Of a stretch of DNA of 64,000 bases, positions 17,714 through 39,830 are shown piece by piece. The notes under the pieces were generated by a model. That model saw only the letters and a list, made by a program, of their open reading frames with translations. It was not told the DNA's origin and ran no database searches. Source of the stretch: a virus (taxonomy: Duplodnaviria > Caudoviricetes); the IMG/VR virus record IMGVR_UViG_3300045284_000107, positions 10,101 to 74,100 of that record. The stretch is one strand, 5' to 3'. Position numbers and translations under genes: made by a program. The first letter of the stretch is position 1, and every line of letters starts with the position of its first letter.

Positions 17714-19198
17714 CTACGAGTCAACTTTGAGGCCACTTTGGGCAGCGTTGAGAGTTATTCCGGTCCAGGGTGCCCCAGCCGACGGTTCAGTAATAAACAA
17801 CGACGTTAACCATCCAAAACTTGTCGCGGGAACAATCCCCGTCACCGAACCTCCACTATCCGTTCCAGATGATAATATTCTTAAACTTACAGATTTTGCA
17901 CCTGAGTCTGAGCGTTGAATATAGGCCTTTACTGCTACCCCATATACGACTGCGGGCAAAGCACTTAACGGGCCAAAATTATACAAGTCCTCATGCCCCA
18001 CAGTAGCATCAAAAACATAACTAGGCAGACCTGCGGGCGGCGATAAACTTACCTCATACCAATTATTCCCTGTAACTCCGGTCAGATTACCCCACAACAA
18101 CCATGAGCCAAATCCAGCCGTCATCGCCGGAGCTGTACCTGGCGCGCCCGAACTGAAAGTTGCATTCGCTCTATATCCAAGGGCATTATTATCACTTGCA
18201 GCCATATTAAACGCCGTGTCAGTCATAAAACCAAGCCAATACTGTGTCCCTGCACTTAAACTTTGTGGCGTGGTTAAATTCAAAGTCAAAGGTACACCTG
18301 AGCTAATACCTGTAACTGTAGACCCCGCGGACATTAGTGTTCCGGCCGCCCCAGAACTATCCGAATAAATAACAGGCCTAAAGTTCGCCGTGGCACTTGA
18401 AGCATTTGAAGAGATTGAAATTGAATTAATTGTTCCCGCTACAACAGGGGTGAAACGTCTCAGTCCCATACAATTCGCCACTGTCGCGACACTACCTTGG
18501 GTCCGTTGCCCCGCAGATCCCAATATCGCCGCTCCAAATCCAAACTGTACCGTTCCATCACTTGTAGGAAATGTAGTCTCAACCCTAGGGCTTGTCAAAA
18601 GCACCGCGTTATTGGTTGATCCGGTCGGGTCAAAAATGTACAAATCGTCAAATTGGCAAGCTCCGGCGGCACTCGGCTGGGTCAATTGAAACCCATTAGC
18701 AAACGCATTGGCCGAGGCTGTCGTATCCCCCGTCCCAGACATTACACTCACACCATCCATCCAAATCTGATACGATGCGGAATTTCCAAACGTAATGTCC
18801 CATTCATAATAATGAATACTGTTGGCCGTAATAGAGGTAGGGCTAGTTGCTATAACGGTCCCGCCTACAGTCCCATTTCTAAACGTAACAGTCGAAGCAA
18901 TTGAAATACAACACTGAACCGTGCCACCATCTAAAAAATATACCCCACATGTTCCTGTAAAAGCAGACGAAATTCTTATGCCGCCAATTAGCCGATTATA
19001 ATTAGTCGGAAGTACCTTGGTTAATGTACCCGTTCCGCCCGGTTGCATCGCAAATCCAGGACTACTTAGTCCCGCCACGATTGTACAAAGATTACCAGAG
19101 GAGTTCCATTCACCCGCCGTCATAAGCAAGGAGGCATATCCAGCATTAGAATTAAGCCCACCGTATTTATCAAACCCGTCCATAAAAATAAGTGCCAT
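17714..19198 (-). CDS. Minor tail / fibre protein (beta-rich)
   Basis: MALIFMDGFDKY start, G/S/T-rich, C-terminal PSAGAPWT; located downstream of the tail tip. Confidence 0.6.
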   Translation of the reverse strand: MALIFMDGFDKYGGLNSNAGYASLLMTAGEWNSSGNLCTIVAGLSSPGFAMQPGGTGTLTKVLPTNYNRLIGGIRISSAFTGTCGVYFLDGGTVQCCISIASTVTFRNGTVGGTVIATSPTSITANSIHYYEWDITFGNSASYQIWMDGVSVMSGTGDTTASANAFANGFQLTQPSAAGACQFDDLYIFDPTGSTNNAVLLTSPRVETTFPTSDGTVQFGFGAAILGSAGQRTQGSVATVANCMGLRRFTPVVAGTINSISISSNASSATANFRPVIYSDSSGAAGTLMSAGSTVTGISSGVPLTLNLTTPQSLSAGTQYWLGFMTDTAFNMAASDNNALGYRANATFSSGAPGTAPAMTAGFGSWLLWGNLTGVTGNNWYEVSLSPPAGLPSYVFDATVGHEDLYNFGPLSALPAVVYGVAVKAYIQRSDSGAKSVSLRILSSGTDSGGSVTGIVPATSFGWLTSLFITEPSAGAPWTGITLNAAQSGLKVDS

Positions 19199-19199
19199 G

Positions 19200-19862
19200 T
19201 TACGATGACCTTATGTTCAAGGAGCCTGCGGGGAAACTTACCAATACCCCGGCCGATATAATTTGTGGCACGACCTTTCGTACCATTCCATTCCCCGGCG
19301 CGGAAGTATTAACTCCCACTCCGCCATTTGTAACCGTAAATGAATTAGTCAAAGGTGATCCGCCAACAATCAACGGCCCCGTAAAGCTCCCAACCGCAAA
19401 CGTAGGATTAGTACCCCCATATTCAATCGTCCATTGTACCGTGTCACCCGCCAAATATCCATGTGCAGGAGAGGTAATAATAGCAGGTGTACCACTGCTT
19501 ACAGTGGCGGGGAACCACAAATAATTCCCCAGAAAGTCCCAAGCCAAAAGATTTCCCGTGGTCAAGGCGTCAAAGATGCCCATTCCAATCGCAGTTCCCC
19601 AAGCGGCAGTAGGAATAGGAAATGCTATAGGATTAGCATTTACGATTGAGGATGGCCCCGACCCTGTGGCGGCATTCCAATCTGCCGCCGCAGTTGCCAC
19701 CCGCGCATACCCGGTCCCCGAGACTTCTGTAAATCCTGTCCCTGCATCTATCCCTACCCCAGTGAACAGGCCTACATGGGCGGTAGGTATAGAAAACAAG
19801 GCAGACTTGCCAGTGACATGGTTCAGAATGCCTTGAGACACTCTATCTGTAAAGCCAGTCAT
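19200..19862 (-). CDS. Minor tail protein
   Basis: HVGLFT...EVSGTGYARV...NANPIAFP...WGT...GIFDALTTGNLLAW, a common siphophage minor-tail pattern. Confidence 0.65.
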   Translation of the reverse strand: MTGFTDRVSQGILNHVTGKSALFSIPTAHVGLFTGVGIDAGTGFTEVSGTGYARVATAAADWNAATGSGPSSIVNANPIAFPIPTAAWGTAIGMGIFDALTTGNLLAWDFLGNYLWFPATVSSGTPAIITSPAHGYLAGDTVQWTIEYGGTNPTFAVGSFTGPLIVGGSPLTNSFTVTNGGVGVNTSAPGNGMVRKVVPQIISAGVLVSFPAGSLNIRSS

Positions 19863-19877
19863 TACCGTCCCTTTCTT

Positions 19878-20897
19878 TTAGGCCAACGCCTTAACGCCAT
19901 AGTTAAACCCCGCAGCTGTAAAATCCGCAATGAGCCACGGAGCGGAGGTATTGGGATTTAAGGCCCATTGACGAGAATAATTATTAAACGACGTAGACAA
20001 GGCAATGGACAACCCGGCCAAATAATCCGTCCCCGAAGTTCTAAGTGACCAATCCATATGTTGGGGGCCGGTGGCCCCAACCTGAGCGCGCGCCTCTTGG
20101 AAAAATCCTAGAACATTCCAAGTCCCTGCGGGGGCTACCGCGCCAGAGGGAGACCATTGTGAAAGATCATTATTCACCGTTGTGCTTACGAACGTGCCGT
20201 CTGAATTGTTGATTTCGTTTATGTTTCCAACAGTGTTAGGGAGCCATGATTGGGTGTTGCCCGACGCGGTAGCCGGTAAGGTCCACAGGGCCATTCCCCT
20301 CGTATCCTGATCGGCCACAATAATTTCCGAATAAAGTGTTTGGCCATTTGTGCCCCAATTAGATAATTCAACCTGATTTAACTGTGTCGCCGAGTCCGTG
20401 CGGGGATCTCCCGCAAAATTCACAACCATAGTCCCATTGAGCCAAACCTGTATCCCACCGGACACACTATAATCAATCTTTACATCTAAGGAATACAGTG
20501 TTGAGCTTGTGTGGGACGAGGAAAACGTGGCCAAATCAGTCAAAGTTCCCGCCGCATTCCTACTTGAAACTTTCGGCGTACCATACAACGATGCCGATGT
20601 TCTAATTACAATCCTTGACACCCCATCAGGACTACGAAAAAGTACATTCTGGCAATTTAAGACCGATCCTGTGTCTGTATCAAAAAACACACAATGAAAC
20701 CACACAACAGAACTGGATGTGAACGTGGGTAACTGTATTCGGTTGGCGGGCGGATCTGCCGTGGAGTTGCCACTATTTGCCCCCACCGCACACCGGCCAT
20801 ATCCAGCCCGAAACCGCCCGGTACTCGTACTTATCTGAGGAATTTGCGGGAATCCAGTAAATCCAATATCTTCCCCGGTCGCTTGCAAGATGGCCAT
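19878..20897 (-). CDS. Minor tail / fibre protein
   Basis: Beta-rich; C-terminal NPNTSAPW resembles the end of 17714-19198. Confidence 0.55.
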   Translation of the reverse strand: MAILQATGEDIGFTGFPQIPQISTSTGRFRAGYGRCAVGANSGNSTADPPANRIQLPTFTSSSVVWFHCVFFDTDTGSVLNCQNVLFRSPDGVSRIVIRTSASLYGTPKVSSRNAAGTLTDLATFSSSHTSSTLYSLDVKIDYSVSGGIQVWLNGTMVVNFAGDPRTDSATQLNQVELSNWGTNGQTLYSEIIVADQDTRGMALWTLPATASGNTQSWLPNTVGNINEINNSDGTFVSTTVNNDLSQWSPSGAVAPAGTWNVLGFFQEARAQVGATGPQHMDWSLRTSGTDYLAGLSIALSTSFNNYSRQWALNPNTSAPWLIADFTAAGFNYGVKALA

Positions 20898-20899
20898 TT

Positions 20900-21985
20900 C
20901 TAGTTCCTCGCTCCAACGATTGTCCCATAAAGGCCGGCGATTGTACCATCAAACCCTGAATGTGCATACATTCGTAATCTCTGTCCCTGTGTGACATTGA
21001 ACGAGCCACAAGTCCAAGATCCCGAAGTCGAACCAGCGTGAATAGTCATACTTCCTACAGGCGTTCCCACCCCTGCCACATCAATCAATTGCAAATTAAA
21101 TACCGCGTCCAATAATGGCGCGATCTGACATCCCGGCAACGGACTTTTAGCCAGGTTTGCGTCAAAATTAACTGTCCACGGAAATTCTGCATCAAAAATC
21201 TGATAATTACTATCCCACGGATCCAGGACCAAATCTGTAATAAGTCCTCCGACCGAAAACGGCGTAACCCACAATCCGCGCGCCAACCCCGAACCAGTCA
21301 AAGTATAATTATATACCGGCAACATAGATATATCTTCTAGATTGCCCCCAACCGAATTGAAGGATGGAAATTTAAAACTTACCATGGTCCCGATCATAAT
21401 GGACGGATAAGTATGGGAGAATATCTGTCCTCCGACAAGTCCAAACTGGCCACCTATTGGATGGGCCGAGATTGCCGTGTCGAACATTCCCCGCCTCAAA
21501 TATGTGTCCAAATCGTACATACTTGGCGCGGTCAATACAACATTAGAATATCCTACAAGTTCCCCATCTACATAGGCTAGGGTAATCCCAACATCCGCAT
21601 CGCCGGCACTTGCTGCATCTATGACCCCATCACACATTCCCGTGTCCACAGATAACACATTTGTAGTGTCGGGGTCCGAACCGGCCAGGAAATTGGCCGA
21701 CAACATCCCTTGGACGCCACCCGTCATCATAGTGCCCAATTGGCCATATGAAGTGCCGCCATCTACCGAAGCCCAAATCTGGCACCCGCCCCAATCCTCT
21801 GTCGGACCCGTAACAATTATCCACAGCGATAATTGGCCCGCCGAAAGGCTCGGGTTGGGTTCAAAAATAATCGGCTCATTAACACTTGGCGGAAACGTGT
21901 CAATAATATCCGTGTAGCCGCCCGATCCTGAAACTTGTGAGTCATAAAGATAAGCCGTTCCAACGCCTGACGGGGAGAGTGCCAC
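20900..21985 (-). CDS. C-terminal half of a GTA-type tail-tip (megatron-like) protein, as a separate gene
   Basis: PIIFEP...WGGCQIWASVDGG.SY...GELVGY...YLRRGMFDT..SAH...KFPSFN. Confidence 0.7.
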   Translation of the reverse strand: MALSPSGVGTAYLYDSQVSGSGGYTDIIDTFPPSVNEPIIFEPNPSLSAGQLSLWIIVTGPTEDWGGCQIWASVDGGTSYGQLGTMMTGGVQGMLSANFLAGSDPDTTNVLSVDTGMCDGVIDAASAGDADVGITLAYVDGELVGYSNVVLTAPSMYDLDTYLRRGMFDTAISAHPIGGQFGLVGGQIFSHTYPSIMIGTMVSFKFPSFNSVGGNLEDISMLPVYNYTLTGSGLARGLWVTPFSVGGLITDLVLDPWDSNYQIFDAEFPWTVNFDANLAKSPLPGCQIAPLLDAVFNLQLIDVAGVGTPVGSMTIHAGSTSGSWTCGSFNVTQGQRLRMYAHSGFDGTIAGLYGTIVGARN

Positions 21986-22003
21986 GATGATTGTCCTTTC
22001 GTT

Positions 22004-24064
22004 TTAGTACAAGACCTTGGTAGTCTGTAAGGGTTCGGGGCCGTCCAAGATCAATTCTGGCCCTGAACTTAGAAGTTTCCCTTTAGGAAATCTCAGATCT
22101 AGGTCGGCCAAATGTCTAAAAGCACTTTCGTTTGGATCTCTAGGAATGGAATTTGTATTCCTAAATATTGATGGGCTGTTTATGGCCCGTTTTGTGGTCC
22201 ACCAAAAATTACTTGTATCCCCCCTAAATCCACTATAAAACACAACGTCTTTGACTAACGAAAACTTTAACATTGGCGGCAAGACAAGGCCCGAACCCAT
22301 AACACTATCCACATCGTGGCCATCCACCCACAATATAATCCTCTGAAACCCATCCAACGTCCATGTCAATAACAAATGTTGCCAAGTGCTATTTGTCAAA
22401 ATTATGTCTTGATCGGTCTGAAAATAAAACTCTCCATCTAAGATTACACTAAGAGACAGGTTTTCATCTATAAAGACCTTTAATTGTATGTGGCCATTAC
22501 TGTCTATGGCGGTGATTAGATCACAGGTCTCGCCCTTGGGTATTTCCTGATCCATATTGACCCACAGGGATAGGGTGCCTTGAGAACTGTCTTGTAATTG
22601 GGGATCTTGCCAAATATAAGCACTTTGACCCGTAAATGTCAGGGCAGCTAATGGTGGAGGTGTACTTACAGGCGCAGCGCCGCCCATTTGTGGATCTTCA
22701 CATGTAAAAATCAAATCCCCGTTGTCATTTTCTTCAATGGTCAAGATACGGACTGGATAATGGTCCAGGTATGTGTCCCCAGCATGGCCGGTCAACGTGA
22801 CCATATCCATTGGCTCTAACAAACAATATTGCCATCCCAACTGAAACTTTATCTGATTGTTGCGGATATACATCCGCCGTTGCATAAGTAATTGAATGGA
22901 GATTTGGGCCGAATACTGATTACAAAAGGCCCGCCCTGGTAATGAGTCCCCAATCCGTAACCCATACGTATCAATTGCGCCTTGGTCATAAGCAGTTATG
23001 ATTGTAGAGTTGTAAAAGTTTTTGCGGTCCATATATTCCATTGAGATCCAATTATCTGCATCCGCCGGGTTGGACCTCATCAACATGATTGGGTCATCAT
23101 CTCCAGGAGTTGGTATCCCTCCCTCTTGGTGTGGGTTCCAGGGCAGAAAATCATCATCCGTCAAATCATATTGATAGGTAAATGTAAACGGATACCAATA
23201 TGCACCGTTGTTGTTGAGTTCTAGATCCCCATAAGGGACGACCTTTAACAAACGTCCTGACCAAACCATTGTCGAATTAGTCAAAATTATCAAACCATTT
23301 AACCATTCAATTGCCTTTTGGTGCCCGTCTAGACTGGAACTTACCAGCAAGGACGCCGCCTGACAGTAATCCCCATATGTATTTAGGATCACCCCATCTG
23401 GGTCATGAGTTAGGCGATCCAAGCATTCTGGTGGAAAGCCCGCCCCGTACCTAACATTAGTCAAAAAATCTGTTATTATGTCTCCTGGATTTGCATCGGC
23501 GGTATATGCCCCCACATTTACGCCGGTCATCATTCCCGTAATTTCTATCCCTACGTTTGGTAAGACCGGAGATTGTCCAAGGTCCATTGGCGTCCCAGTA
23601 ACATGCACGGTCCCACTATAACCCAAACTATTAAAACTTGGGTCGGGGGTCTGCCCATCATATCCCAGATAGGCATGTAATCCCGTAGATCCAAACGATG
23701 CAACCCCGGCCGAGGAAAAAACTAAATTAGCAGTTGTACCCCCGACAGGGCCTTGACACAAGGCAAAATCTACAAACACGCTATAGTGGCCATTCTTTTT
23801 GCCGCCCTTACCCTTACTGCTACCCCCGCCTTTTCCTGATTGGGAGGTGCCACTTAGGGGCAACGATCCCGTCTTGCCTTTTTTACCTTTTGGTCCCTTA
23901 TAATTCTTAAGATCTATAAGATTGACCTGTTGCCGACACGTCCCATAGATCAATGGGATTACAGATCCTTGTTGTGACGTATTATAATGCAAAGCATTTT
24001 TGGCCTGGTGCTGCCAAGCCGTGTTCTGCAAAAACGACTGTTGGGGCCGAAAAATCGAACTCAT
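22004..24064 (-). CDS. Tail-tip hub protein, paralog B, with C-terminal LamG-like domain
   Basis: IPLIYGT, LCQGP, DANPGDIITDFLTNVRYGAG, EENDNG; then LSLWVN...WQHLLLTW. Confidence 0.8.
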   Translation of the reverse strand: MSSIFRPQQSFLQNTAWQHQAKNALHYNTSQQGSVIPLIYGTCRQQVNLIDLKNYKGPKGKKGKTGSLPLSGTSQSGKGGGSSKGKGGKKNGHYSVFVDFALCQGPVGGTTANLVFSSAGVASFGSTGLHAYLGYDGQTPDPSFNSLGYSGTVHVTGTPMDLGQSPVLPNVGIEITGMMTGVNVGAYTADANPGDIITDFLTNVRYGAGFPPECLDRLTHDPDGVILNTYGDYCQAASLLVSSSLDGHQKAIEWLNGLIILTNSTMVWSGRLLKVVPYGDLELNNNGAYWYPFTFTYQYDLTDDDFLPWNPHQEGGIPTPGDDDPIMLMRSNPADADNWISMEYMDRKNFYNSTIITAYDQGAIDTYGLRIGDSLPGRAFCNQYSAQISIQLLMQRRMYIRNNQIKFQLGWQYCLLEPMDMVTLTGHAGDTYLDHYPVRILTIEENDNGDLIFTCEDPQMGGAAPVSTPPPLAALTFTGQSAYIWQDPQLQDSSQGTLSLWVNMDQEIPKGETCDLITAIDSNGHIQLKVFIDENLSLSVILDGEFYFQTDQDIILTNSTWQHLLLTWTLDGFQRIILWVDGHDVDSVMGSGLVLPPMLKFSLVKDVVFYSGFRGDTSNFWWTTKRAINSPSIFRNTNSIPRDPNESAFRHLADLDLRFPKGKLLSSGPELILDGPEPLQTTKVLY

Positions 24065-24076
24065 TTATGTGGCCCC

Positions 24077-26383
24077 CTAGAGATACGGATCATCATTACA
24101 GATCGTCAACGAGGCCCCCACAAGACCCAGATTAGGATATGCCAAGTCTCCGCCCCCGCCACTACCACTTACTCCATAAAAATTCTCCCAATACAAATGA
24201 TCGTCAGGTTTAAACCCCGCCCGGTTATACGCATAATACGATTGGTCAAGTCCGGGCTGGTTAGGATTTAAATTACCTACGGCTGGATAATGCAAGAATA
24301 CATGAGGAGATTTACCAAACGGATACTCGCCGCGAGGTCCAAGATCCTTAGCACTTCCGTCAGGGTTCCTAAACGAACTCGGGCTTGAATGTTGCGCCGA
24401 ACCATCAAACCACAAGTCCTGGGTGCAACCTCTCAGTGTCCCGCCAATCACGCCAAAGTTCGCGCCCGAATAAAATATAATAGTCCGCTCATTTGAATAC
24501 TTTACGTCATACCAGGGTATAAGAATAGACGATAAAGCAAAATCATAAGCCCGTTCGCCGTCTACCCAAGCATTTACTTTGGGGCTGGCCCAACTAAACA
24601 GCACATGATGCCATTGCCCATCAAACTTTAAAACTTCTGGATTAGACAAGAGAGAAATTTTATTAGCCGTATAGCTGCCTGCCACCCAGCCAAACAACCT
24701 CCCACGCCAATCTACCCCCAATCCCAACTCCATCCTCACATCACTTGGATCAGGTGGTTGGGTATGAACAAAGAAAAACCTACTATCAAACGCGCCGTCG
24801 GGGCCGGTCGGAGCCTCATCTTCGGTAATTTTAACCCATACGCTTAATGAGCCGTGGCGACTATCCGGCGGATGTGTATGCTCCCAATTAAAATTAGGAA
24901 ATGTAGCATAGCCGGGGGTGGTAGATGGCCATATACAACCCGAAACGGTCATATGTACGGCCTTTTGATGATCCCTAAATGTCTCGCCGGTCATTGGCGC
25001 CGCGGTTCCAGGCTGCGGATCTTCCCCTGTAATTATCAAATCCCCATTATCATTTTCTTCAATAGCTGTAATTCGGACCGGATACTTGTCTAGATATTTG
25101 TCCCCATGAAGGCCCGTGACAGAGACAAAATCCATAGGTTCCAACAAGGCATACCGCCATCCAACCTGGAACTTCACCCCTGTGTTTCGAACATAAAGTT
25201 TGCGCTGAAGAAGAATTTGGAGCGAGATGGAGGCCGATCCAAGGTCCGCAAACGCCCTCCCCGCGATTGAGTCCCCAATCCTGAGACCATAAGTATCTAT
25301 GGCACCTTGGTCAAACGCGGTCAAAATGGTCGAAGCATAAAAGTTTTTTCTATCTGTATATTCAATACTGTGCCAGTTATCAGCATCGGCGGGATTTGAA
25401 CGAGTGATAATTATGGGATCGTCATCTCCAGGATTGACTGGCGCGCCATCCTGATGTGGAGCAAAGGGCAGAAAATCATCATCATCCAAATCATATTTAG
25501 GTACAAAGTCCGGTATCCAATGAGCACCATTGCGGTTTAATTCTGCATCACCGTAAGGGATGATTTTTAATTGTTTGCCGGACCAAACCATTGCGGAGTT
25601 GGTCAATTGACAAATCCCCTGCATCCATTCAATTGCCTTCATATGTCCATCTAAGGCCACACTAATCAACAAGTAATTGGACTGACAATAATCGCCGTAA
25701 GTATTGACCCGGCCGGGCAAACGGGTCAGGGGGGCGACACATTCGGGCGGGAACCCCGCCCCATATCTAGGATTAGTCAAAAAATCCGTAATACACTCGG
25801 CGGGGTTTGCGTCTTTTGGATTGGACGGCCCAGTGTTAATGCCAGTCATAAACCCATTGATTTCAAACCCAATATTCGGCACAACAGGAGACTGTCCTAG
25901 ATCTATTGGCGTCCCTGTGACATGGCATGTTCCACTATAATTTACCTTATTAAAATGTGGGTCTAAGGCCTGTCCATCTTGGCCCTCATAAAAATGCAAT
26001 ATAGACGATCCAAACTGCTCGACCCCAGACGACGAATAAATAGTATTGTGTGGGTCGAAATGTACGGGGCCTTGGCATATCGCAACGTCTATATTGACAG
26101 AATAATGTTTGTTCTTTTTCGCGCCTTTGCCCTTACTTCCACCTGATCCCTTACCAGTCTGGGAAGTCCCAGACAATGGAATAGATCCTACTTTGCCTTT
26201 TTTGCCTTTCGGCCCCCTGTAATCATTCAAATCAATAAGGTTCATTTGCACGCGCACGGTGCCATATATCAATGGCAAAACCGATCCCTGCTGAGACGTA
26301 TTGTAATGTAAAGCATTTATAGCACTATGTTGCCAAGCGGTATTTTGCAGGAACGATCTCTTGGGTCGAAACAACGAACTCAT
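24077..26383 (-). CDS. Tail-tip hub protein, paralog A, with C-terminal LamG-like domain
   Basis: Collinear with paralog B over about 450 aa; then LSVWVK...WHHVLFSW. Confidence 0.8.
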   Translation of the reverse strand: MSSLFRPKRSFLQNTAWQHSAINALHYNTSQQGSVLPLIYGTVRVQMNLIDLNDYRGPKGKKGKVGSIPLSGTSQTGKGSGGSKGKGAKKNKHYSVNIDVAICQGPVHFDPHNTIYSSSGVEQFGSSILHFYEGQDGQALDPHFNKVNYSGTCHVTGTPIDLGQSPVVPNIGFEINGFMTGINTGPSNPKDANPAECITDFLTNPRYGAGFPPECVAPLTRLPGRVNTYGDYCQSNYLLISVALDGHMKAIEWMQGICQLTNSAMVWSGKQLKIIPYGDAELNRNGAHWIPDFVPKYDLDDDDFLPFAPHQDGAPVNPGDDDPIIITRSNPADADNWHSIEYTDRKNFYASTILTAFDQGAIDTYGLRIGDSIAGRAFADLGSASISLQILLQRKLYVRNTGVKFQVGWRYALLEPMDFVSVTGLHGDKYLDKYPVRITAIEENDNGDLIITGEDPQPGTAAPMTGETFRDHQKAVHMTVSGCIWPSTTPGYATFPNFNWEHTHPPDSRHGSLSVWVKITEDEAPTGPDGAFDSRFFFVHTQPPDPSDVRMELGLGVDWRGRLFGWVAGSYTANKISLLSNPEVLKFDGQWHHVLFSWASPKVNAWVDGERAYDFALSSILIPWYDVKYSNERTIIFYSGANFGVIGGTLRGCTQDLWFDGSAQHSSPSSFRNPDGSAKDLGPRGEYPFGKSPHVFLHYPAVGNLNPNQPGLDQSYYAYNRAGFKPDDHLYWENFYGVSGSGGGGDLAYPNLGLVGASLTICNDDPYL

Positions 26384-26853
26384 TGTGCGGCGACCTCTGA
26401 TATTTTATCCGACATTTCATCTTCTAACATCAAGGGCCTATAAAAGACCCTAGCTTTGGACATTAAATGTCCTTGTGTCCCATCCGCATATATGACCCCG
26501 CGCGTCACATACGAATGAATGATACGGGGCCATTCAACTATAATTCCCCCATGCGAAAAGACCCGCCCCACACGATACAAGACTAGATCCGCCGGTAAGG
26601 CCTCTGCCATTGTAATTGGCCGCGAAAATCTCTCTACGATAGATTTGTACCATTCCTCTGAACGATGTAGGTGAAAATCTCGTGGATAATATGCCGTCTT
26701 GACGTGGGGTATAAATCCACACTCCTCAAACACCCCAAGTAAAAACTGGCCACAATCCACCCCTGCACCCTTGCACCGTTGTAGGTGATGGAATGGTGTC
26801 CCTACCCATTCCCCGGCCACCTGCAAAACCTTCTGTCTTCTTTCATTTAACAT
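26380..26853 (-). CDS. NlpC/P60 tail-associated peptidase (GTA-type)
   Basis: WVGTPFHH...GVDCGQF...SHGGI. Confidence 0.88.
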   Translation of the reverse strand: MLNERRQKVLQVAGEWVGTPFHHLQRCKGAGVDCGQFLLGVFEECGFIPHVKTAYYPRDFHLHRSEEWYKSIVERFSRPITMAEALPADLVLYRVGRVFSHGGIIVEWPRIIHSYVTRGVIYADGTQGHLMSKARVFYRPLMLEDEMSDKISEVAAQ

Positions 26854-26854
26854 T

Positions 26855-26959
26855 TTAGTCTCCTACTGCATTTATGGCCCACATAAGACCCTCCACAATC
26901 AACAGCCACAAAACTATGCCCAAAATGACAAACCCCACCCGCCATAAAAATTTCTTCAA
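26855..26959 (-). CDS. Small single-pass membrane protein (34 aa, not in ORF track)
   Basis: MKKFLWRVGFVILGIVLWLLIVEGLMWAINAVGD; TTGA overlap; fills the gap exactly. Confidence 0.4.
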   Translation of the reverse strand: MKKFLWRVGFVILGIVLWLLIVEGLMWAINAVGD

Positions 26960-27912
26960 ATGGCGGTCTCAGGGGGTGGAATATACGGAAACCCGCCATA
27001 CCGCGCCCGATTTTGAAACGTATTGGTACAGGTGTTTAGCGTGTGGTCACATCCTGGGAAGACGTGAAAATAATCCGAACTTTCCACAACTGGGAAGATC
27101 CACGGTTTAAGAAAATACACCGTATTCCAGGGAGAGCCGGGAATAATTTTACCAATCGTTCGCGTAAACCCAGCGTTTAGACCCGTAAAGCCCTGAATTG
27201 TACCATTATCATACGACGTTGCAATCGCGGGGGTGAAAGTTGTCTTTATCGAATTTTGGTCCGATCCAACACCGCAGATAAATTCTGCCAGACCAATCCC
27301 GGTCGCAGTCCCTAACGCATTTAAACCATTTACCCGATCATATCCGCACATTCCAAATCCAGGCTCCCCAAACACATGGTTACATGCAGATTGGAACAGT
27401 CTTCGGGGCATTTGCACTGTTAGGAGGTCCAACAATGATTTGACCCGTATTGCAGTTTTTGTACGTCCTATATCTACATCTCCGACCCGACCATAAAACC
27501 AAGTAATTGTTCCCACCACATGTGGGGGAGAACCTGTCAAGAATGCGCGCAAAAGTTCACAATATGCCCCATCGAACAATCCGACAAAAAAGGCATTCTG
27601 CCAAGTGATTGTGCCCCCAGAATTGACGGCCAAGATATCCTCATCCCCGGCATACAGGTCAATGGATAATTCATCGACTTGGGGGCCGACCTCGACCTTG
27701 GATTTGGTCCGCGCAAACCTCGGCCCCAAAACAAACTCATAAGTCGGCGCGGTAGTATTGGGCAGGGGAGCTACCAATGGTGTTTGGAAACCTGAATAAT
27801 AAAACGTTTCGCCGGTTATGAGAGTGAATATGTATAGGTCAGCAATCATGACCCGTTGGGAGGTGGGCCAATTATCCAGAAAAGTCTTCAGCGCGGTTGA
27901 AGCCAAACGCAT
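26956..27912 (-). CDS. DUF2163 / BR0599-type tail hub protein
   Basis: GLFDGA, MPRRLFQSACNHVFG...C, PGCDHT...C...F.N...YGGFPYIP. Confidence 0.85.
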   Translation of the reverse strand: MRLASTALKTFLDNWPTSQRVMIADLYIFTLITGETFYYSGFQTPLVAPLPNTTAPTYEFVLGPRFARTKSKVEVGPQVDELSIDLYAGDEDILAVNSGGTITWQNAFFVGLFDGAYCELLRAFLTGSPPHVVGTITWFYGRVGDVDIGRTKTAIRVKSLLDLLTVQMPRRLFQSACNHVFGEPGFGMCGYDRVNGLNALGTATGIGLAEFICGVGSDQNSIKTTFTPAIATSYDNGTIQGFTGLNAGFTRTIGKIIPGSPWNTVYFLKPWIFPVVESSDYFHVFPGCDHTLNTCTNTFQNRARYGGFPYIPPPETAI

Positions 27913-27923
27913 CTTAGATCTCC

Positions 27924-28559
27924 CTAGTACAACACAGATGTAAGTTTTAGTTGCTTCATGGACCACAGTTGATACATGAAGTTTTCGGCCTCTAGATTGT
28001 CCGTGGCGAAGCGGACCTTGTAGCGGTAGGTTCCATCAAAAGTAATTGGTGTGCCACTACCGGGGGCGGTCCCATAAGTAATGACCCCCGTATCAAAGTT
28101 CGGCACCGACCCAGTAGGGGAAAATGTATAATCTATAGGAATAATTGGGGCGCGAATTGCACTACAAAGTTGGAAACTCTTTGTTGTACCGTCACCTACG
28201 GCGACAGTTATGGCCTGCGCCACAGCCGGATCGGCCCGCGTAGTATTATCCGTAGGATCATAAAACTGAAACGGAATACTTGCTCCACATTGTTGATTGA
28301 AGAAGTTCCAAATCTGTCGCAATTCATCCCTGGGGGTAGTCACGTCCGCATAGGCATGGCCGCGCAATGGGCCATCTCGTATATCCCACCGATCTCTTAA
28401 AACCTCATACGTTAATGTAAAGGTATAAATAGGTAATATATAATCATTTACGCGCAGTTCGCGGCCACTTACGGCCCTCTGCATTCGGGTGGCCCAGTTG
28501 GGGCTTTTCATTACGGACCATCCCAACGTGATAGTATTAGGAAAGACATTTAGTGCCAT
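27924..28559 (-). CDS. DUF2460 distal tail protein (GTA-type)
   Basis: W.T.MQRAVSGRELR, FQFYDPTD, GDGTTKSFQL, YKVRFATD. Confidence 0.85.
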   Translation of the reverse strand: MALNVFPNTITLGWSVMKSPNWATRMQRAVSGRELRVNDYILPIYTFTLTYEVLRDRWDIRDGPLRGHAYADVTTPRDELRQIWNFFNQQCGASIPFQFYDPTDNTTRADPAVAQAITVAVGDGTTKSFQLCSAIRAPIIPIDYTFSPTGSVPNFDTGVITYGTAPGSGTPITFDGTYRYKVRFATDNLEAENFMYQLWSMKQLKLTSVLY

Positions 28560-28564
28560 CGCCC

Positions 28565-31500
28565 TTATCCTGGCAAATTGGGGTTGAAGTTACGATAAGC
28601 GTTCCGGTACAGGCCCGCGATAGTATCCCTGTGGTTCATTAGAAATTGGGCACCAGATCGTTGATCTATGGCATTTATGTGGAAGTTGATTGGGGGCGGC
28701 GGCATCCCGGCAGGGCCACCACCATTAGCCCCATCTTGTACCGCCTCCGACAAATGCTTTGGAAGAACCATTTCCCCAGGGTGCAAGATTGACAATGTAC
28801 CCCCTCTTGACAGGTTTGCTCCGCCGCCCATAATCATTCCCCCCTCTGCCGAGGGAATTATCCCACCCTGTTCCAACATAAAGATTGGAAGTATTTTTCC
28901 TATGGTGCCAAAAATGCTACCGGCCGTATCTAAAAGTCCTCCACCACCACCCCCACCGCTATCACTTTTATTATCCCCAAACATACTAAAGATAGATTTC
29001 AATCCACCAAAAGCCCCACTAATCGTAGACATTGAGGTGGATAGTTTGGCAACTCCATTTTCAGATGATCCAGTGGTACGGGCCATTGACCCCAACGCAC
29101 CCGTAACCTTTGTTACGTCTGTAGCCAGATCACCCATTTTGGTACTAACATTACTGACATTTTCGGTCAGTTGGCGTACTGCTGTGTTTGTACCTATTGC
29201 ACCGCCGGCAACCGGACTATAAGTCGGAGAACCTGGAGTAATTTCTGAGACCACTCCGCCTTCTGCATATCCTCTCGGTAGAACAACTTCTCCACCTTGC
29301 AAAAATGCAGCCATATCATGTGGAACCTGTCCACCTCCATGGAACTTAGGTAGGATCTTTTCCCACCACGACTTGGACGGCTCATCCTTATCGCCAATTG
29401 TTTTGCCTGTGTATGGATTTATATTTGCCGCTTTGTCCTTGTATTTGTCCAATTGTTCTTGGGTCAGCGGAGTAGTAATTTGGGTTACATCTTCGGCCCC
29501 AAAATCTTTAGTATCTAATAGTTTTTTGGCCAAGGCCTTGTCTTTGTCTTTTTCGCCAAACAGGGATGCAATTCCTCCCGCTACAGCCAAACCTCCCAAT
29601 AAGGCAAGCCAGAACCATCCCTTTCCCAGACCCGGATTGGTCTGTACCAAATGATACGGGGCAAAGCCGCGACTTTCATTTGTAAGAGATGTGAGGCCTG
29701 GATGGGACGCTACAATGCCTCCATCGGCAAACTTAGGCATTGATCCAGATGGAAACAACTGGGCCATTGGATCAAGGTCTCGGAATTTTAATGCTTCACG
29801 AAGGGTAAGCCCTTCATGATGCTGCATTCCATTTCGACCCATAGATACAACATCAAACTTCTCACCTCTAAGTACACTTTCCCGCGCTATACTTGCCTCT
29901 GCGGGCTTTCCTGCAAATTCCCGCCCTCCACTTACCCTAAACCCATATAAATCTGTAGTTTCCCCCGTCATCTGAAACATACGTCTGAATGTATCACGGA
30001 TAAATTGGCCACCAAGTGCTCCGCGGCCATACCCTGCCGCAAATGTTTGACCTGGAAGTTCTGGATTGACCGAGGGCAAGGGCGAACTTGCCAATCCAAT
30101 ATGTATACCTCTAAATTTCTCGCTTGATTTGCGATATAAATCGCCTTCCATTACGGGCTTTCTTTCGCCCTCGGCAAAGGCCCCAAATTCCATATGCCGA
30201 TATTCTATACCACGAACAGTCTGGCTTTCTGGATTTATAAACTTTAGTTTTTGGAATTTCAGGGCACCACTTTCATCTGCCAACATAGATGGAACGGCGG
30301 CGGCCATTTCCCGAGCAATTGGCACTCCCGCTCGTATCGCCCCAATACCCGCCCGCGCAACAGGAAATAAAGTAGAGACGCCAGTTGCAGCTCCGACTAC
30401 GCCCTGACCAAACGCCTGTAGATATTCCCCCCTACGGGCGGCCAATATTGATTGCTCAATATCTGTATAGCCAATTAGAGATTTGCCAATATCTTTCAAT
30501 GACGGAACAGGTTCGGGTTTGTATTTTAAAAATTCCCCTTCCAAATTTTGCTTATAAATTTCCTCAACAAGTCCGCCATCGGCAAATCTTTGACCCCGTT
30601 CTGCCAAAATCCTCCTATAACGCTTCATTTCGTTAAGTTCGGCTTCTGTACCTCCCATACTGTAATGACCAGCATCAGGGGTACCAAACGTGCTACCAAT
30701 GGCTATAGACTGGCCGGGATAATACCTATCGCGGGCCTTAAGCATTTCTTCGTCTAGTTTACGATATAAAGGACCGCCTCTCCCCATCATTCCAGGAACA
30801 AGGTTTCCCTTCGCGTCAAAAATCCCAACATCAAATGCCCGGCCCATACCATGTTCGGAAGGTTCACCAGTTCCTTTAACGGTAGACCCAGGTCTATTAG
30901 CCGAGGTTATTTTAGTTGAAAACCCTCTGGGCAGATTTTCATTAGCACTATCCATCAAGAAGTGAAGTTTTAGAAGTTCGGGGGTATCATATGTCATACC
31001 TCCTATTGTAAGATTTTCGCCCCCTGCAATTCCGCCCTCTTGATGGCGTTCAATCCCTGACGGGAACATACGATCGTATTTGGCCCGCTGATTGCGGGTC
31101 AGAACCCGTTCCCCTGGAGTAAGCCACGCCAATACAGTATCTGTACCTACAGGACCGCCAAGTGCATATGCAGGTGTAGGCACACTTGTAGGAGCAGGCG
31201 GACTTGCCGTAGGTCCGGCTCCAGGAGCCTTAATCGCCGCCAAAGCACTTGCAGCTGTGGATGCGGCACTTCCAAGTCTTCTTAGTTCATTTTGGGCGGC
31301 TTCAGCACCACCTATACTATAATGTCCCGCATCCGGCTTATCACTAAATGTACTTCCTACTGCCAATGGCTGGCCGGGATATAACTTGTCCCTGGCCTTT
31401 ATCATTTCTTCGTCCAGTTTACGATACATGGGACCACCACGACCCATGTACCCTGGAACTCGTTTCCCTTCTGGATCTAGAACTTCAACGTCCGCGGCCC

Positions 31501-34500
31501 GCGCGAAACCATGTTCAGAGGGTGTACCTTTCCAAGTAGTAGCCCCAGGTCTTACATCATTAGTTATCCGTGCCGTGTATCCGGCTGGCAAATTTTTATT
31601 TGCCTCGGCCAACATGGCATTAAGTTTTTGCAATTCAGGAGTATTGGTCGGGACACTTGATGTAGGACCGCCCGGCACAGTGGTACTTGGAACTGCCCCA
31701 CCTTTTAATTTGTCGGCGGCCTCCTTTAATCTGTCTCCTGCCTCTTTTAATCCATCAGCTGCGGGCTTTATAAGTTTCGTGGCCTCGTTTTGGGCGTCGG
31801 CGGCTTTTTGTATTTTTTCGGCCGCCCCCTGCATTGCGTCCTTGGGGGTATCCTTGGTCAGACCAAGCATATTCCCAAGTGCCCGACTTAGAACCGTTCC
31901 AAGTCCGGTATCTGCCAATCCCTCAGTCTTGACCCCCAACATTGGGGCCAATTTACTGCCTAGATACTGTGACCCTAAACTAAAGGTCTCTTTTACCAAC
32001 GCTCCAGTAATTGATTTGCGGAGATCCTGTAATGTATTGGTTCCGGCCTCGCCAGTCAAAAGGCCCGTTAGGGACTTCTCAAGTCCTGACCCCACTTCAT
32101 CAAACGCACCTTTTAATAATTTGGCGCGCTTTTCATTTTCTTTTTCTATAGCCTCGCTTACGCGGGCCTGGGCGGCGATTTGTAGTTCCGCATCCTTCTC
32201 ATACAATTCGGCCAAATGCGAGAACAGTTTCTCTTTTTGTTGATCTGTGAGTCCACTAATTCTGGTCTGGGCTTCAATTCGTTTTTCTTCCTCCTCCATT
32301 ACTTTAGATGAGAACGCGGCCTCTTTAGTGGCCATCGTCTCCTTGGACATACTATGGTCCGCAACCTGAGCCTGAAGTCTATACTTCTCCTGTTGCATCC
32401 TGATCCGGTCAAGACGCTCTTGGGACGAATTAAACCTATCTAATTCACTAAACCTTCTATTTTGTTCTTCAGATAAGGCATTTACAATATCTGTTTGGGC
32501 ATTGATTTTTTGGGCGGGGGTGGCGTATTTGTCCCCAGCCGTAATTTGGGCTTCTTGAATACGTAAACGTACTATTTCCTCTAAATCGCCACGACTTTTG
32601 GCAATTGCTTCACTTAGTTTTAGTTGGGCAATTTGAGTATTTTTGGTGTCCTCTACGATACGTTTTTGGGCCTCTGCGATTTGAGCATCATAGCCAGCAC
32701 TTTGCCGCTGGTACTCAACCCCAACCCGCCATAGATCCCACCAAATCTTAGTCTTTACTGTAATGTCTGCATTTGTCTTATCAGCATCTTGCATTGCCTT
32801 GTTGAAGGCTTCGGCTTCGGCCCTCAATTGCATCATTGCAAGGGCGCGTTCTTGTTCTATAGCCGCAGGGGCCGCCGCAAGCCCCGCATGACCCATATCT
32901 CTAAGTTTGGCCTTGTTTTGCAGTTCAAAGGCCGAAAGAATATCCCTATTGGCCTGTTTTAAATCATTTGCCGACGATACTGCCGCTTCGACTACAGTTC
33001 TGTATGCTAGGATTCCCGCGCGCTCTATGTCCTCCATTGCGCGGAGGAAATCTACACTCCCCGCCTTGAAATGGGCGGCGGCATTCGCGCGCCATTCTGC
33101 AATGATCGCAGTTATAGCATCATAAGAACCCTTGCCGGTTCTGATTTGGTTTTCATAACCTTTTGCAGCTTCGGCGTATTCTTCTCGATTTGCTTCTCGG
33201 GCAAACGCAGTCTGGGCACGTTTAGCCGTTTCAACCTGTACCTGTGTCGCCTGACCTTTTTTAAGTTGTTGCTCAGTCAATGAGACTATTTCGGCCTGTA
33301 GGGCAATCTTTTCTTTTGAACCATGCGCCTCGGCGGCAATCCGTTCCTGTATCCCTGCAATGGTAATTGCGGTTTCCTCGTTTTGGATCCGCCGCATTAC
33401 CTCTTTTATTTCATTGTTGGCTTTTATTGCAGCCTCAGACTCTTGTGCCATTTCGGCGGCACGTTCGGGGTCCATACCTCCCCCGACCAACCTTTGAGTC
33501 TCTGTTCTTTGTTGTTCGCGTGCAACATTTATTGCAGCCGCTAATTGGGCCTGTAAATCTACATGTCTTGCTTGGGCTTCGGCATGGATATGTCCTAGAG
33601 CAAGTCTATGCCGCCTTTCCTCGGCAGGATCTTGTGGCATTGACCGGACTTCAGCTTCAAGAGTTCCAGCCGCGCTACGCGCCCGTTCTTCTGCGGGAGT
33701 ACCCTTTAATCTTTCCGCCGCCGATTGGGCGGCAGTCATCATGTTTACAAGTACAATCCGCTTATTTAAGGCATCATTGCCTGCGACTATAGCAAGGCCT
33801 TGGGCCTTTATGTCCTCTGTTAATCTCTGTGTAGCTTCACTATCCCCTTTTAAGGGGTCCATATATTTTTCGAATGTTTTTGCCAGTTCCTCCGCAAGAG
33901 GATTAAAGGTAGAAAATTCACTACCCGCGGCTCCAGCCCCAAATGCGAGCCAGAACATATCATTACCGGCAGTTCGCCCCGCCGTTCCCAACTCTTTTAA
34001 TTTGGGGTCAATAAGATAGGGGGCAAGAAGTCTAAACGCTTCCTCGTCGGTCTTTGCGATCTTTGCTAGTTCTACAAGGGACCGTCCAGAACTATCCACC
34101 ACCCCTTCGAGGCCGCGGAATTTAGTTATAAATTCGGCTAGTGAAACTGCGCCACCTTTGGCAGCGTTTACAAATGGCTCAATAGCCTTTGTAGGTTCAA
34201 CCCGTTGTAGGCCTGCATATCCCTTAGCCGCCTCGTCAAAACTCTGTCGTATTGCATGAGCCGCCGGAGGAAGTTTATCTAATTCAGATAATAACTCCTT
34301 TGTTGTTCCAGCGTACTCATTAGTTGATCTTTTGCTACGGTCAAATTCTGCCTCAGCCCCTGCACGTTGTTGAGGTCCAAATCCAAACCCCTGTATTGCT
34401 CCTGTTGTTTCTGTTTCACGAACCGATTTAAACCGCTGATATGCCTGTTCGAGAGCATAAACGACCACTGCAATTGCGGCCACTGCCGCTGCGGCATAAA

Positions 34501-39050: not shown

Positions 39051-39830
39051 TTAGGCAAATGCCTCTTGGGACGGGGCCGGAGATTGTTCCAGTTTCTTAA
39101 ATCTTCTTCGGATAAACCCCATCGCCACGAGTCCAGTCCCCAAAAGGGCCATACTTCCCGGCTCTGGTACGTCAATGGCCGATGCGACAGGTACGATGTA
39201 GAAACTCTCGCCCCCATCAACCGCGCCATGCCATGTGGCCTGAAAGATCAGGTTATCACCCGGCTGTATAGCACAGTCGGCCAGTACGAATTGGCCACTG
39301 TCCCGACAGCCTTGTGACAAATTGAACCCTGAGATCAGGTAATCTGCCGAGCCATTACCATTTCGGATATCTGGCAACGCCACCGAGCCGGCCAAGTCAA
39401 ACACTATCTGACCAGTCGTAAGATCAATCAGGCGGAACTGATCTAGGACTTCCGACGCAGCGTGGGTCGAGTTCACGTCAATGGCGACCCCGAACGTAAA
39501 CAAGGGATCTGTGCCTTGGGCGTTTAGGAAGTTCTCCAGTTGGGTTCCGGTATAGGCCGTGCCTTGTACACCGTTCCCAAACGCATTGGTCAGATTTGAT
39601 GAGAACAGGTTGAAACTGTCATCATTACCTGTGCTGTTGAAATTATTGTACCCAAATCCTACCGGATTGTGGGCCTGTGTCGTTGCACAGATAATGCACG
39701 GATCGGAGGCCGACTGTGGTACGACTTGTGCATCGGCAAGTGGCGTCACAGTAAGTGTAGTAGCATTTGCGGGACTTAAACCCGCCACCAATGCCATTAC
39801 AGATACTGCACCTAACAAGTTCTTAATCAT
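39051..39830 (-). CDS. PEP-CTERM exported protein 2
   Basis: Signal peptide ending ANA; C-terminal VPEPGSMALLGTGLVAMGFIRRR. Confidence 0.9.
   Translation of the reverse strand: MIKNLLGAVSVMALVAGLSPANATTLTVTPLADAQVVPQSASDPCIICATTQAHNPVGFGYNNFNSTGNDDSFNLFSSNLTNAFGNGVQGTAYTGTQLENFLNAQGTDPLFTFGVAIDVNSTHAASEVLDQFRLIDLTTGQIVFDLAGSVALPDIRNGNGSADYLISGFNLSQGCRDSGQFVLADCAIQPGDNLIFQATWHGAVDGGESFYIVPVASAIDVPEPGSMALLGTGLVAMGFIRRRFKKLEQSPAPSQEAFA

What the first reader, a model, noticed from the sequence alone, without database searches (positions are those of the whole stretch)
20900..26383. Tail-tip hub duplicated and split at one junction, each copy capped by a different LamG domain
Seen: A (24077-26383) and B (22004-24064) are collinear for about 450 aa up to EENDNGDLI.T.EDPQ.G.AAP (near 25000 and 22680), then switch to different LamG-like tails. 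Gene C (20900-21985) begins SGVGTAYLYDSQ...PIIFEP. Known: GTA-type tail tips have one large hub protein. Inference: C is the sequence that normally follows that junction, so the ancestral gene was cut and its N-half duplicated. The result could be a heterotrimeric tip, two virion types with different receptors, or recombination-based switching.
Basis: partly seen in the sequence, partly recalled or inferred. Interest (0 to 1): 0.72.

Follow-up and report, generated by a model that had tools for sequence, protein, structure and literature searches.

The report
Duplicated, split phage tail-tip hub
A soil phage carries two diverged tandem copies of the protein that plugs the tip of its tail, each ending in a different sugar-binding-type domain, plus one shared downstream piece; the split is common in this family, but a duplicated hub is rare and may give one phage two surface specificities.

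Summary
A (768 aa) and B (686 aa) are tandem paralogues. They are 69% identical over about 465 residues, then drop to about 23% in LamG/pentraxin-like tails. C is the segment that follows this junction in single-gene homologues. Profile, sequence and fold evidence are all collinear, and the junction falls on the central/fibre-binding domain boundary of the RcGTA and R4C "megatron" hub proteins.

The evolutionary reading needs correction:
- **The split is not special to this phage.** 41 of 90 related loci are split at the same point, and 49 are fused.
- **C-terminal caps are also common.** Capped hub genes occur in many relatives; 14 of 58 caps are of this LamG type.
- **The duplicated unit was an already split, already capped hub gene.** The A and B caps are sister lineages, so they are diverged copies, not separate acquisitions.
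- **The duplication is rare and old.** It occurs in one small clade (the window, L005, L012), with clean A/A and B/B orthology, saturated synonymous sites and strong purifying selection on both cores.

It is not an assembly artefact. Switching by recombination is unlikely: the longest shared exact match is 19 nt.

Most likely both paralogues fill the same trimeric hub position and display two different glycan-binding caps above one shared C module. Whether the trimers are mixed or separate is untested. This scan has not reported the arrangement on other DNA.

The parts
28565..35716 (-). Tape measure protein (2383 aa), first gene of the tail-tip module
   Evidence: ORF. Its position is upstream of the DUF2460 gene. 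Homologous loci have TMPs of about 2000-2400 aa with lysozyme or peptidase domains.
27924..28559 (-). Distal tail protein (DUF2460; RcGTA g12 / lambda gpM position)
   Evidence: Pfam PF09343, E = 5e-30.
26956..27966 (-). Hub protein (gp84_N attachment domain + BR0599; RcGTA g13 / lambda gpL position)
   Evidence: Pfam PF09931 at 1e-19 and PF09356 at 6.5e-13.
26380..26853 (-). Small NlpC/P60-like tail peptidase (RcGTA g14 / lambda gpK position)
   Evidence: Pfam PF00877 at 8e-4, below the cut-off; phrog_329 at 1.4e-9. Its position is conserved in relatives.
24989..26383 (-). Gene A, hub core (residues 1-465): N-terminal iris/penetration segment, Gly/Lys-rich loop, adhesin-like domain and central gp27-like domain
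   Evidence: PF13550 at 3.7e-21. The model matches RcGTA megatron 6tba_8A residues 59-984 at Z 23.4, R4C 8gtc_M 60-1129 at Z 21.4, and T5 pb3 and lambda gpJ at Z 17-19.
24077..24988 (-). Gene A, C-terminal LamG/pentraxin-like cap (residues 466-768, stop codon included), with a poorly predicted last ~65 residues
   Evidence: PF13385 at 3.5e-5, below the cut-off. Fold matches to the PAPP-A LG domain at Z 12.4 and to pentraxins at Z 10-11.
22667..24064 (-). Gene B, hub core (residues 1-466), paralogue of the A core
   Evidence: 68.9% aa and 66% nt identity to the A core. PF13550 at 3e-16. It retains every family-invariant column.
22004..22666 (-). Gene B, shorter LamG cap (residues 467-686, stop codon included)
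   Evidence: PF13385 at 4.7e-7, above the cut-off. 23% identical to the A cap at E = 6e-13. 33% identical to its orthologue in L005.
21281..21985 (-). Gene C, residues 1-235: linker motif plus the fibre-binding domain (two FN3-like modules, Rcc01698_C)
   Evidence: PF23666 at 3.1e-8. phrog_1101 positions 474-675. Fold matches R4C megatron 1132-1381 at Z 17.6, JBD30 401-603 at Z 17.4 and Chi 417-626 at Z 15.4.
20900..21277 (-). Gene C, residues 237-361: C-terminal jelly-roll (C1q-like) knob
   Evidence: Fold matches the Agrobacterium phage 7-7-1 tail fibre 9rkv_O residues 477-582 at Z 13.3, rmsd 2.0, 24% identity, and C1q heads at Z ~7. The domain is variable among C homologues.
17714..20897 (-). 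Three downstream genes, probably fibre or accessory tip proteins: 339 aa (phrog_6368), 220 aa (Gp80 fibre I domain), 494 aa (phrog_2448)
   Evidence: Weak similarity between the 339-aa and 494-aa proteins. Their role is inferred from position only.

Best explanation
Shown: this is the tail-tip module of an uncultured soil siphophage of the lambda-gpJ / GTA-megatron type. The central hub protein is in a split configuration. One gene encodes the hub core: the N-terminal channel-plugging segment, the adhesin-like domain and the central gp27-like domain. A separate gene, C, encodes the fibre-binding domain plus a distal jelly-roll knob. The break lies in the interdomain linker, directly after the conserved ...TAEE strand and before the P-x-G-V-x-T-A-x-x-Y-P-x-Q motif with which C begins. 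This split is old and widespread. The hub-core gene carries a fast-evolving LamG/pentraxin-like C-terminal cap. In one small clade this capped gene was tandemly duplicated, before the window phage and the L005 phage diverged. Both cores are under strong purifying selection and are nearly interchangeable, while the caps have diverged to about 23% identity. Inferred: both A and B are built into the single trimeric hub position below the distal tail ring. The shared C protein docks under either paralogue. The two LamG caps project from the hub periphery as two different cell-surface glycan-binding modules. This would widen or hedge the range of host surface types the phage can adsorb to. Because the cores show no paralogue-specific interface changes, mixed trimers are as plausible as separate A3 and B3 particles.
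For: Module synteny and Pfam/PHROG assignments. Profile collinearity of A/B and then C on phrog_1101. C aligns right after the core in more than 100 fused homologues, and one fused chain was inspected directly. Pfam spacing between Phage-tail_3 and Rcc01698_C is the same in fused proteins. Fold matches are collinear: A 19-470 to RcGTA megatron 59-984 (Z 23.4) and C 26-237 to R4C megatron 1132-1381 (Z 17.6), with A and C matching consecutive parts of the JBD30 and Chi chains. Published domain boundaries put central/fibre-binding at 984/985 in RcGTA and 1130/1131 in R4C, with a 20-residue linker. Of 90 related loci, 49 are fused and 41 split. The junction motif is present in both forms. The duplication recurs in L005 and L012. 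The tree gives (A,A5) and (B,B5) 99% support each and their common clade 100%. Core identity is 73-81% between orthologues and 68.9% in every paralogue comparison. The NG86 estimate of dN/dS is at most 0.1 in the cores, with saturated dS, and cap dN is 0.7-0.9. The caps are sister lineages. Only 13 conservative paralogue-specific fixed differences exist, against 246 positions identical in all five cores. All family-invariant residues are kept in both. Each gene has a plausible Shine-Dalgarno sequence and a short spacer.
Against: No data on expression, virion composition or stoichiometry exist, because the phage is known only from metagenome contigs. Sugar binding by the caps is inferred from the fold class only. 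Pfam LamG is below the cut-off for A, and the A model is of moderate quality (pLDDT 70, low in parts of the cap). A trimeric position shared by two paralogues has no solved precedent among siphophage hubs that I could find. The N-terminal iris helix is poorly predicted (pLDDT below 50 for residues 1-33). The duplication is known from only three contigs, one of them cut 55 codons into the second copy.
Confidence: 0.6

Rival explanations
1. Two virion classes only. A and B each form homotrimers and never mix, so a burst contains A3 particles and B3 particles with different receptor specificities (bet-hedging).
For: Homotrimeric hubs are the rule in every solved structure matched here. Both genes are intact and conserved.
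Against: The cores show only 13 conservative paralogue-specific differences and no diverged surface that could enforce self-sorting. The genes are co-transcribed and translationally close, so both subunits would be present at assembly.
Confidence: 0.25
2. Obligate heterotrimer. The tip needs both paralogues in a fixed ratio (A2B or AB2), giving a symmetry-broken hub, as reported for some VgrG spikes of type VI secretion systems.
For: Both copies have been retained through long divergence in at least two phages. VgrG, which shares the gp27-like core fold, forms heterotrimers of paralogues with different C-terminal extensions. In L012 the first 55 residues of the two copies are 91% identical although third codon positions have diverged, which could reflect co-adaptation.
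Against: No complementary, paralogue-specific interface changes were found. The window and L005 pairs show no such N-terminal co-variation. All other relatives function with a single hub gene.
Confidence: 0.15
3. One copy is not a virion hub subunit. It could be redundant and drifting, a non-structural decoy or assembly factor, or placed elsewhere on the tail.
For: There is no direct evidence that both are in particles. B has a shorter cap that lacks the last ~80 residues of A.
Against: Both cores have dN/dS of at most 0.1, keep every invariant family residue and are intact in independent genomes. B is in fact the more conserved copy, at 81% to its orthologue.
Confidence: 0.08
4. The tandem repeat is a substrate for recombination that switches or deletes caps (phase-variation-like host-range switching), or it is an assembly artefact.
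For: The copies are direct repeats in tandem orientation. A, B and C are in one reading frame in all three genomes.
Against: Core nt identity is 66%, third-position identity is 44% and the longest exact match is 19 nt. There are no joints, loose ends or variants in contigs of two samples. Orthology is clean, with no conversion tracts. The A|B spacer in the window holds a second in-frame stop, so read-through fusion is not supported. Independent assemblies and diverged orthologous loci exclude an artefact.
Confidence: 0.02

Closest known systems
Megatron protein of RcGTA (g15, Rcc01698; PDB 6TBA/6TEH) and of roseophage R4C (PDB 8GTC)
   Same: The gene order is the same: distal tail protein, hub, peptidase, then megatron. 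The core fold is the same: A against 6tba_8A at Z 23.4 and against 8gtc_M at Z 21.4. C matches the R4C fibre-binding domain at Z 17.6. Both Pfam domains, PF13550 and PF23666, are present.
   Different: Here the protein is split at the central/fibre-binding linker. It lacks the large peripheral domain, carries a LamG cap after the central domain, and the core gene is duplicated. Sequence similarity is remote (profile E = 3e-6).
Lambda gpJ, T5 pb3 (+ pb4), JBD30, Chi and T1 tail-tip hub proteins
   Same: The hub-domain fold is the same (Z 15-20). In JBD30 and Chi, A and C match consecutive segments of one chain. T5 (pb3 then pb4) and the mycobacteriophages Claus, Corndog and Mysterious (BHP plus a separate central fibre protein) show that a hub and a separate distal protein is a known arrangement.
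   Different: None of these has two paralogous hub genes. Their decorating domains are FN3 or other folds, not a terminal LamG. The split point in T5 is not shown to be homologous to this one.
VgrG paralogues of type VI secretion ('evolved' VgrGs)
   Same: A gp27-like trimeric hub core is shared (Z ~10). Several paralogues differ mainly in their C-terminal extension and can form heterotrimers.
   Different: It is a different machine. The extensions are toxins or effector adaptors, not adhesion domains. The relation here is by analogy and distant fold only.
Tuc2009/TP901-1 Tal: two alternate forms in one virion population (Stockdale et al. 2013, cited in PMC7291167 as ref. 40), and 'evolved' Tal/Dit proteins with carbohydrate-binding modules
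   Same: There is a precedent for a trimeric siphophage hub existing in two C-terminal forms for infection specialisation, and for carbohydrate-binding modules decorating hub proteins.
   Different: By my recollection of that paper, there the two forms come from proteolysis of one gene product. Here they would come from two genes. The hosts are Gram-positive and the family is unrelated in sequence.

Membership tests
gpJ / megatron-type tail-tip hub (Pfam PF13550 Phage-tail_3) | PF13550 domain above the gathering score | tested here: met
   A scores 76.1 bits and B 60.2 bits against a cut-off of 23.
gpJ / megatron-type tail-tip hub (Pfam PF13550 Phage-tail_3) | Hub-core fold (adhesin-like domain plus central gp27-like domain) superposable on solved hubs | tested here: met
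   The A model matches 6tba_8A at Z 23.4 (354 residues, rmsd 3.3), 8gtc_M at Z 21.4, and gpJ and pb3 at Z 17-19. B was not modelled but is 69% identical.
gpJ / megatron-type tail-tip hub (Pfam PF13550 Phage-tail_3) | Gene order: TMP, distal tail protein (DUF2460), gpL-like hub, NlpC/P60 peptidase, then the hub gene | tested here: met
   The same order is seen in L005, L009, L010 and L013.
Megatron protein in the strict sense (RcGTA g15 / R4C gp16) | One polypeptide containing the iris, adhesin-like, peripheral, central and fibre-binding domains | tested here: not met
   The fibre-binding domain is in the separate gene C. No peripheral domain is present: A residues 19-470 span chain residues 59-984 with only 354 aligned.
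Megatron protein in the strict sense (RcGTA g15 / R4C gp16) | N-terminal helix forming the iris that closes the tail channel | tested here: inconclusive
   The N-terminal 55 residues are the best conserved part at nucleotide level, but they are predicted with pLDDT below 50.
Rcc01698_C / fibre-binding domain (PF23666) | Domain above the gathering score, with a fold like the fibre-binding domain of a solved megatron | tested here: met
   C scores 34.3 bits against a cut-off of 27. C residues 26-237 match 8gtc_M 1132-1381 at Z 17.6, rmsd 2.4. Actual fibre binding was not tested.
Laminin_G_3 / concanavalin-like lectin fold (PF13385) | Pfam match above the gathering score | tested here: met
   This holds for B only, at 30.5 bits against a cut-off of 27.6. 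A scores 24.4 bits, below the cut-off.
Laminin_G_3 / concanavalin-like lectin fold (PF13385) | LG/pentraxin beta-sandwich fold | tested here: met
   A residues 485-768 match the PAPP-A LG domain at Z 12.4 and PTX3, SAP and CRP at Z 10-11. The cap model has stretches of low confidence.
Laminin_G_3 / concanavalin-like lectin fold (PF13385) | Carbohydrate or other ligand binding | not testable with these tools
   This needs glycan arrays or binding assays with the purified caps.

The most novel reading that the evidence does not exclude
The tail tip of this phage clade is a genetically encoded mixed trimer. Two hub paralogues co-assemble around the three-fold axis, breaking its symmetry, and display two different LamG adhesins above one shared fibre-binding module. 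That would make it the first siphophage hub built like a heterotrimeric VgrG spike, and a natural example of dual specificity at the central tip rather than on side fibres.
Probability: 0.25. Interest if true: 0.75.

Novelty: new variant of a known kind. Interest (0 to 1): 0.5.

Why it matters
The central hub of a siphophage tail is a unique trimeric position that both closes the DNA channel and starts tail assembly. Host-range variation is normally placed on side fibres, or arises by swapping the C-terminus of a single hub gene. Two conserved paralogues competing for that one position would be a different route to dual specificity. It would also raise a concrete assembly question, mixed versus sorted trimers, that co-expression and cryo-EM can answer. 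The survey also shows that the megatron/gpJ family exists about equally often as a fused and as a split gene, broken at one exact linker, with exchangeable caps on the upstream half. That is useful for annotating and engineering tail tips and gene transfer agents.

Tried and rejected
- **Similar DNA in known phages:** megablast of the region against 50,697 phage records found nothing. tblastn found only relatives at 30-37% identity in Acinetobacter, Brevundimonas and Pseudomonas phages.
- **Own genome:** no whole genome is held for the window.
- **IMG/VR search with A alone:** it found no locus. C did find loci.
- **Sequence searches of the PDB:** phmmer with A or C alone, and a profile of C, gave nothing meaningful. 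Only the A-family profile reached the megatrons.
- **Read-through fusion of A-B-C:** all three genes are in frame in three genomes, but the window A|B spacer has a second stop, and in-frame junctions are at chance level in other relatives (2 of 6 single-copy junctions printed). I rejected this as a working model.
- **Gene conversion between A and B:** sliding windows and third-position identity show none in the window or in L005.
- **Link between the A/B caps and the other LamG protein of the window (49944-51638):** BLASTP found no similarity at E < 0.01.
- **Other cap types in relatives:** caps such as those of P0008-P0026 have no Pfam match and no match to the LamG-cap profile. Their fold is unknown.
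- **Literature:** searches for a duplicated Tal, gpJ or hub gene found no report. The library is incomplete, so this is weak evidence of novelty.
- **Run X3:** it held only three 151-nt pieces, too few to say anything.
Full report
**What is there.** The window is part of a ~74-kb phage genome known only from soil metagenomes. It encodes a portal, a prohead protease, PolA, a ribonucleotide reductase and other phage functions.

On the minus strand the tail module runs in this order:
- tape measure protein, 28565-35716
- DUF2460 distal tail protein, 27924-28559
- gp84_N + BR0599 hub protein, 26956-27966
- small NlpC/P60 peptidase, 26380-26853
- A, 24077-26383 (768 aa)
- B, 22004-24064 (686 aa)
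- C, 20900-21985 (361 aa)
- three probable fibre or accessory genes

This is the gene order of RcGTA g12-g15 and of lambda M-L-K-(I)-J.

- A and B align end to end at 53% identity.
- The first ~460 residues are 68.9% identical at protein level and 66% at nucleotide level.
- After the motif EENDNGDLI.T.EDPQ.G.AAP, identity falls to ~23%.
- Both proteins have PF13550 (Phage-tail_3) well above its cut-off.
- B has Laminin_G_3 above the cut-off and A just below it.
- C has PF23666, named "Rcc01698-like, C-terminal" after the RcGTA megatron itself.

**C is the continuation of the hub protein.** Four independent lines agree.
1. The 1405-position profile phrog_1101 matches A at 147-467, B at 150-473 and C at 474-675.
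2. An exhaustive HMMER search with C gave 2430 hits. In most of the best 150 hits the protein is 650-1900 aa long, and C residues ~5-235 align at about positions 420-660, immediately after a hub core. One such protein, P0135 (784 aa), aligns with B over residues 12-445 and then runs through a short linker into the whole of C. In eight fused proteins, PF13550 is followed about 100 residues later by PF23666, with no LamG between them.
3. The AlphaFold model of A (pLDDT 70) matches the RcGTA megatron 6tba_8A over chain residues 59-984 (Z 23.4) and the R4C megatron over residues 60-1129 (Z 21.4). The model of C (pLDDT 88) matches R4C megatron residues 1132-1381 (Z 17.6). For JBD30, A covers chain residues 2-396 and C covers 401-603. 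For Chi, A covers 2-414 and C covers 417-626.
4. The published domain maps put the central/fibre-binding boundary at 984/985 in RcGTA, joined by a 20-residue linker, and at 1130/1131 in R4C (PMC7296036; PMC10276861).

The break therefore lies in a flexible interdomain linker. At sequence level, fused proteins read ...TAEE-x-P-x-G-V-x-T-A-x-x-Y-P-x-Q..., and C starts at that P-x-G-V-x-T-A motif.

**The split is not special to this phage.** IMG/VR relatives L001-L003 have one uncapped ~450-aa hub gene that ends a few residues after the junction, followed at once by a 283-aa C homologue. The large protein search returned hundreds of such 445-460-aa proteins, mostly from alphaproteobacterial MAGs. 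Across 90 loci holding both parts, 49 are fused and 41 split. These numbers are biased towards relatives of my queries.

A closer clade, at 50-60% identity, has hub cores with C-terminal extensions of 190-500 residues. By an iterated profile, 14 of 58 such caps belong to the LamG type of A and B. These are scattered over the core tree, which points to cap exchange at the junction. A separate hub followed by a distal protein is also known from solved phages: T5 pb3/pb4, and the BHP plus central fibre protein of mycobacteriophages.

**What is unusual is the duplication.** Of 93 fetched loci, only L005 has two hub cores: A5 (777 aa), B5 (690 aa) and then a 361-aa C. L012 has an A-type gene, followed after 12 nt by the start of a second core, which the contig end cuts off after 55 codons.
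- **Orthology.** In the core tree, (A,A5) and (B,B5) each have 99% support and sit with P0005 in a clade of 100% support.
- **Identity.** Orthologous cores are 73% (A) and 81% (B) identical. All four paralogous comparisons give 68.9%.
- **Age.** The duplication therefore predates the split of these phages, and there has been no conversion since.
- **Selection.** Synonymous sites are saturated (pS 0.71-0.79). dN/dS in the cores is at most 0.1, while cap dN is 0.7-0.9, three to four times that of the cores.
- **Caps.** In a tree of LamG caps, the A-type and B-type caps group together (93% SH-aLRT) against all others. What was duplicated was a whole capped hub gene, and the caps then diverged fast.

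**Artefact and switching.** A 54-kb Logan contig from one run spans 19000-28600. A contig from a second sample bridges the A/B boundary (22414-26723). Neither shows any differences, joints or loose ends. Both runs may be sources of the assembly, but L005 and L012 are independent of them.

The longest exact match between A and B is 19 nt, and third-position identity is 44%. Homologous recombination between the copies should therefore be very rare.

A, B and C are all in one frame in the window, L005 and L012, with spacers of 9-18 nt. However, the window's A|B spacer contains a second stop, and other relatives are in frame only at chance level. I do not propose read-through.

**How it most likely works (inference).** In the solved relatives, three hub subunits close the channel with their N-termini and bind the distal tail ring through the central domain. 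The fibre-binding domain hangs below on a linker. A and B each contain the complete core and every invariant residue of the family. They differ by only 13 conservative paralogue-specific substitutions, spread along the chain, against 246 positions identical in all five cores.

Both should therefore fit the same position and bind the same partners, including C. The LamG caps start exactly where the chain would otherwise continue into C, so they should sit at the lower periphery of the hub. Their fold class, their fast evolution and the carbohydrate-binding modules seen on other hubs suggest binding to surface glycans.

Two caps would then give two specificities. Nothing in the cores enforces self-sorting, so mixed trimers are plausible. 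VgrG paralogues give a precedent for heterotrimers. By its title, the Tuc2009/TP901-1 paper (ref. 40 in PMC7291167) gives a precedent for two hub forms in one phage. Stoichiometry, presence in virions and ligand are all untested.

**Verdict.** This is a member of a known family in a known kind of split arrangement, with a rare, old and selectively maintained duplication of the hub gene. I rate it a new variant of a known kind, of moderate interest.

Noticed in passing
window 20900-26383; L005 5658-11168; L012 781-3252: A, B and C lie in one reading frame in all three genomes, with spacers of 12 and 18 nt (window), 9 and 9 nt (L005) and 12 nt (L012). The window A|B spacer holds a second in-frame stop, so read-through is not supported. 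The pattern may be a relic of how the genes arose.
   Followed up: partly
L012 781-945 and 3088-3252: The first 55 residues of the two hub copies in L012 are 91% identical, more alike than either is to its orthologues, yet third codon positions are only 51% identical. This could be an old conversion or protein-level co-adaptation of the N-terminal plug segments. The window and L005 pairs do not show it.
   Followed up: partly
window 20900-21277 (C residues 237-361): C ends in a jelly-roll knob resembling the tip of the Agrobacterium phage 7-7-1 tail fibre (Z 13.3, 24% identity) and C1q heads. It is shared with L005, L008 and some fused proteins but replaced in other C homologues, so C itself may carry a receptor-binding tip.
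   Followed up: partly
window 24077-24090, 22004-22015, and cap ends in L008, L009, L010, L012: Caps of different relatives end in a similar aromatic C-terminus: ..DPYL, ..NPY, ..TPY in the A-type and others, and ..VLY in the B-type. This may be a docking motif. It is unexplained.
   Followed up: no
window 26108-26218 (A residues 56-92) and the same region of B: A Gly/Lys-rich, predicted-disordered loop of about 37 residues sits between the N-terminal segment and the adhesin-like domain. It has family-invariant G63, K78 and G79.
   Followed up: no
window 55402-57825 (-): The portal protein is fused to a C-terminal inorganic pyrophosphatase-like domain (PF18823 InPase, E = 3e-39).
   Followed up: no
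window 39051-39830 and 39886-40665 (-): Two tandem 259-aa ORFs, each with a C-terminal PEP-CTERM sorting motif, lie inside the virion gene block. This is unusual for a phage and hints at a host that has an exosortase.
   Followed up: no
window 49944-51638 (-), 46782-48014 (-), 52882-54285 (-): Three further surface-type genes are present: a 564-aa protein with two Laminin_G_3 stretches (no BLAST similarity to the A/B caps), a collagen-repeat protein, and a TPR + glycosyltransferase family 9 protein.
   Followed up: partly
window 17714-19198 and 19878-20897 (-): The 494-aa and 339-aa proteins downstream of C share weak similarity (23-25% identity, E = 5e-4), with the 339-aa segment matching two places in the longer protein. 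They may be paralogous fibre modules.
   Followed up: no
L022, L035, L049 (genome-contig loci): In these prophage-like loci the hub reading frame stops well inside the core. These may be decayed copies or sequencing errors. I did not examine them.
   Followed up: no
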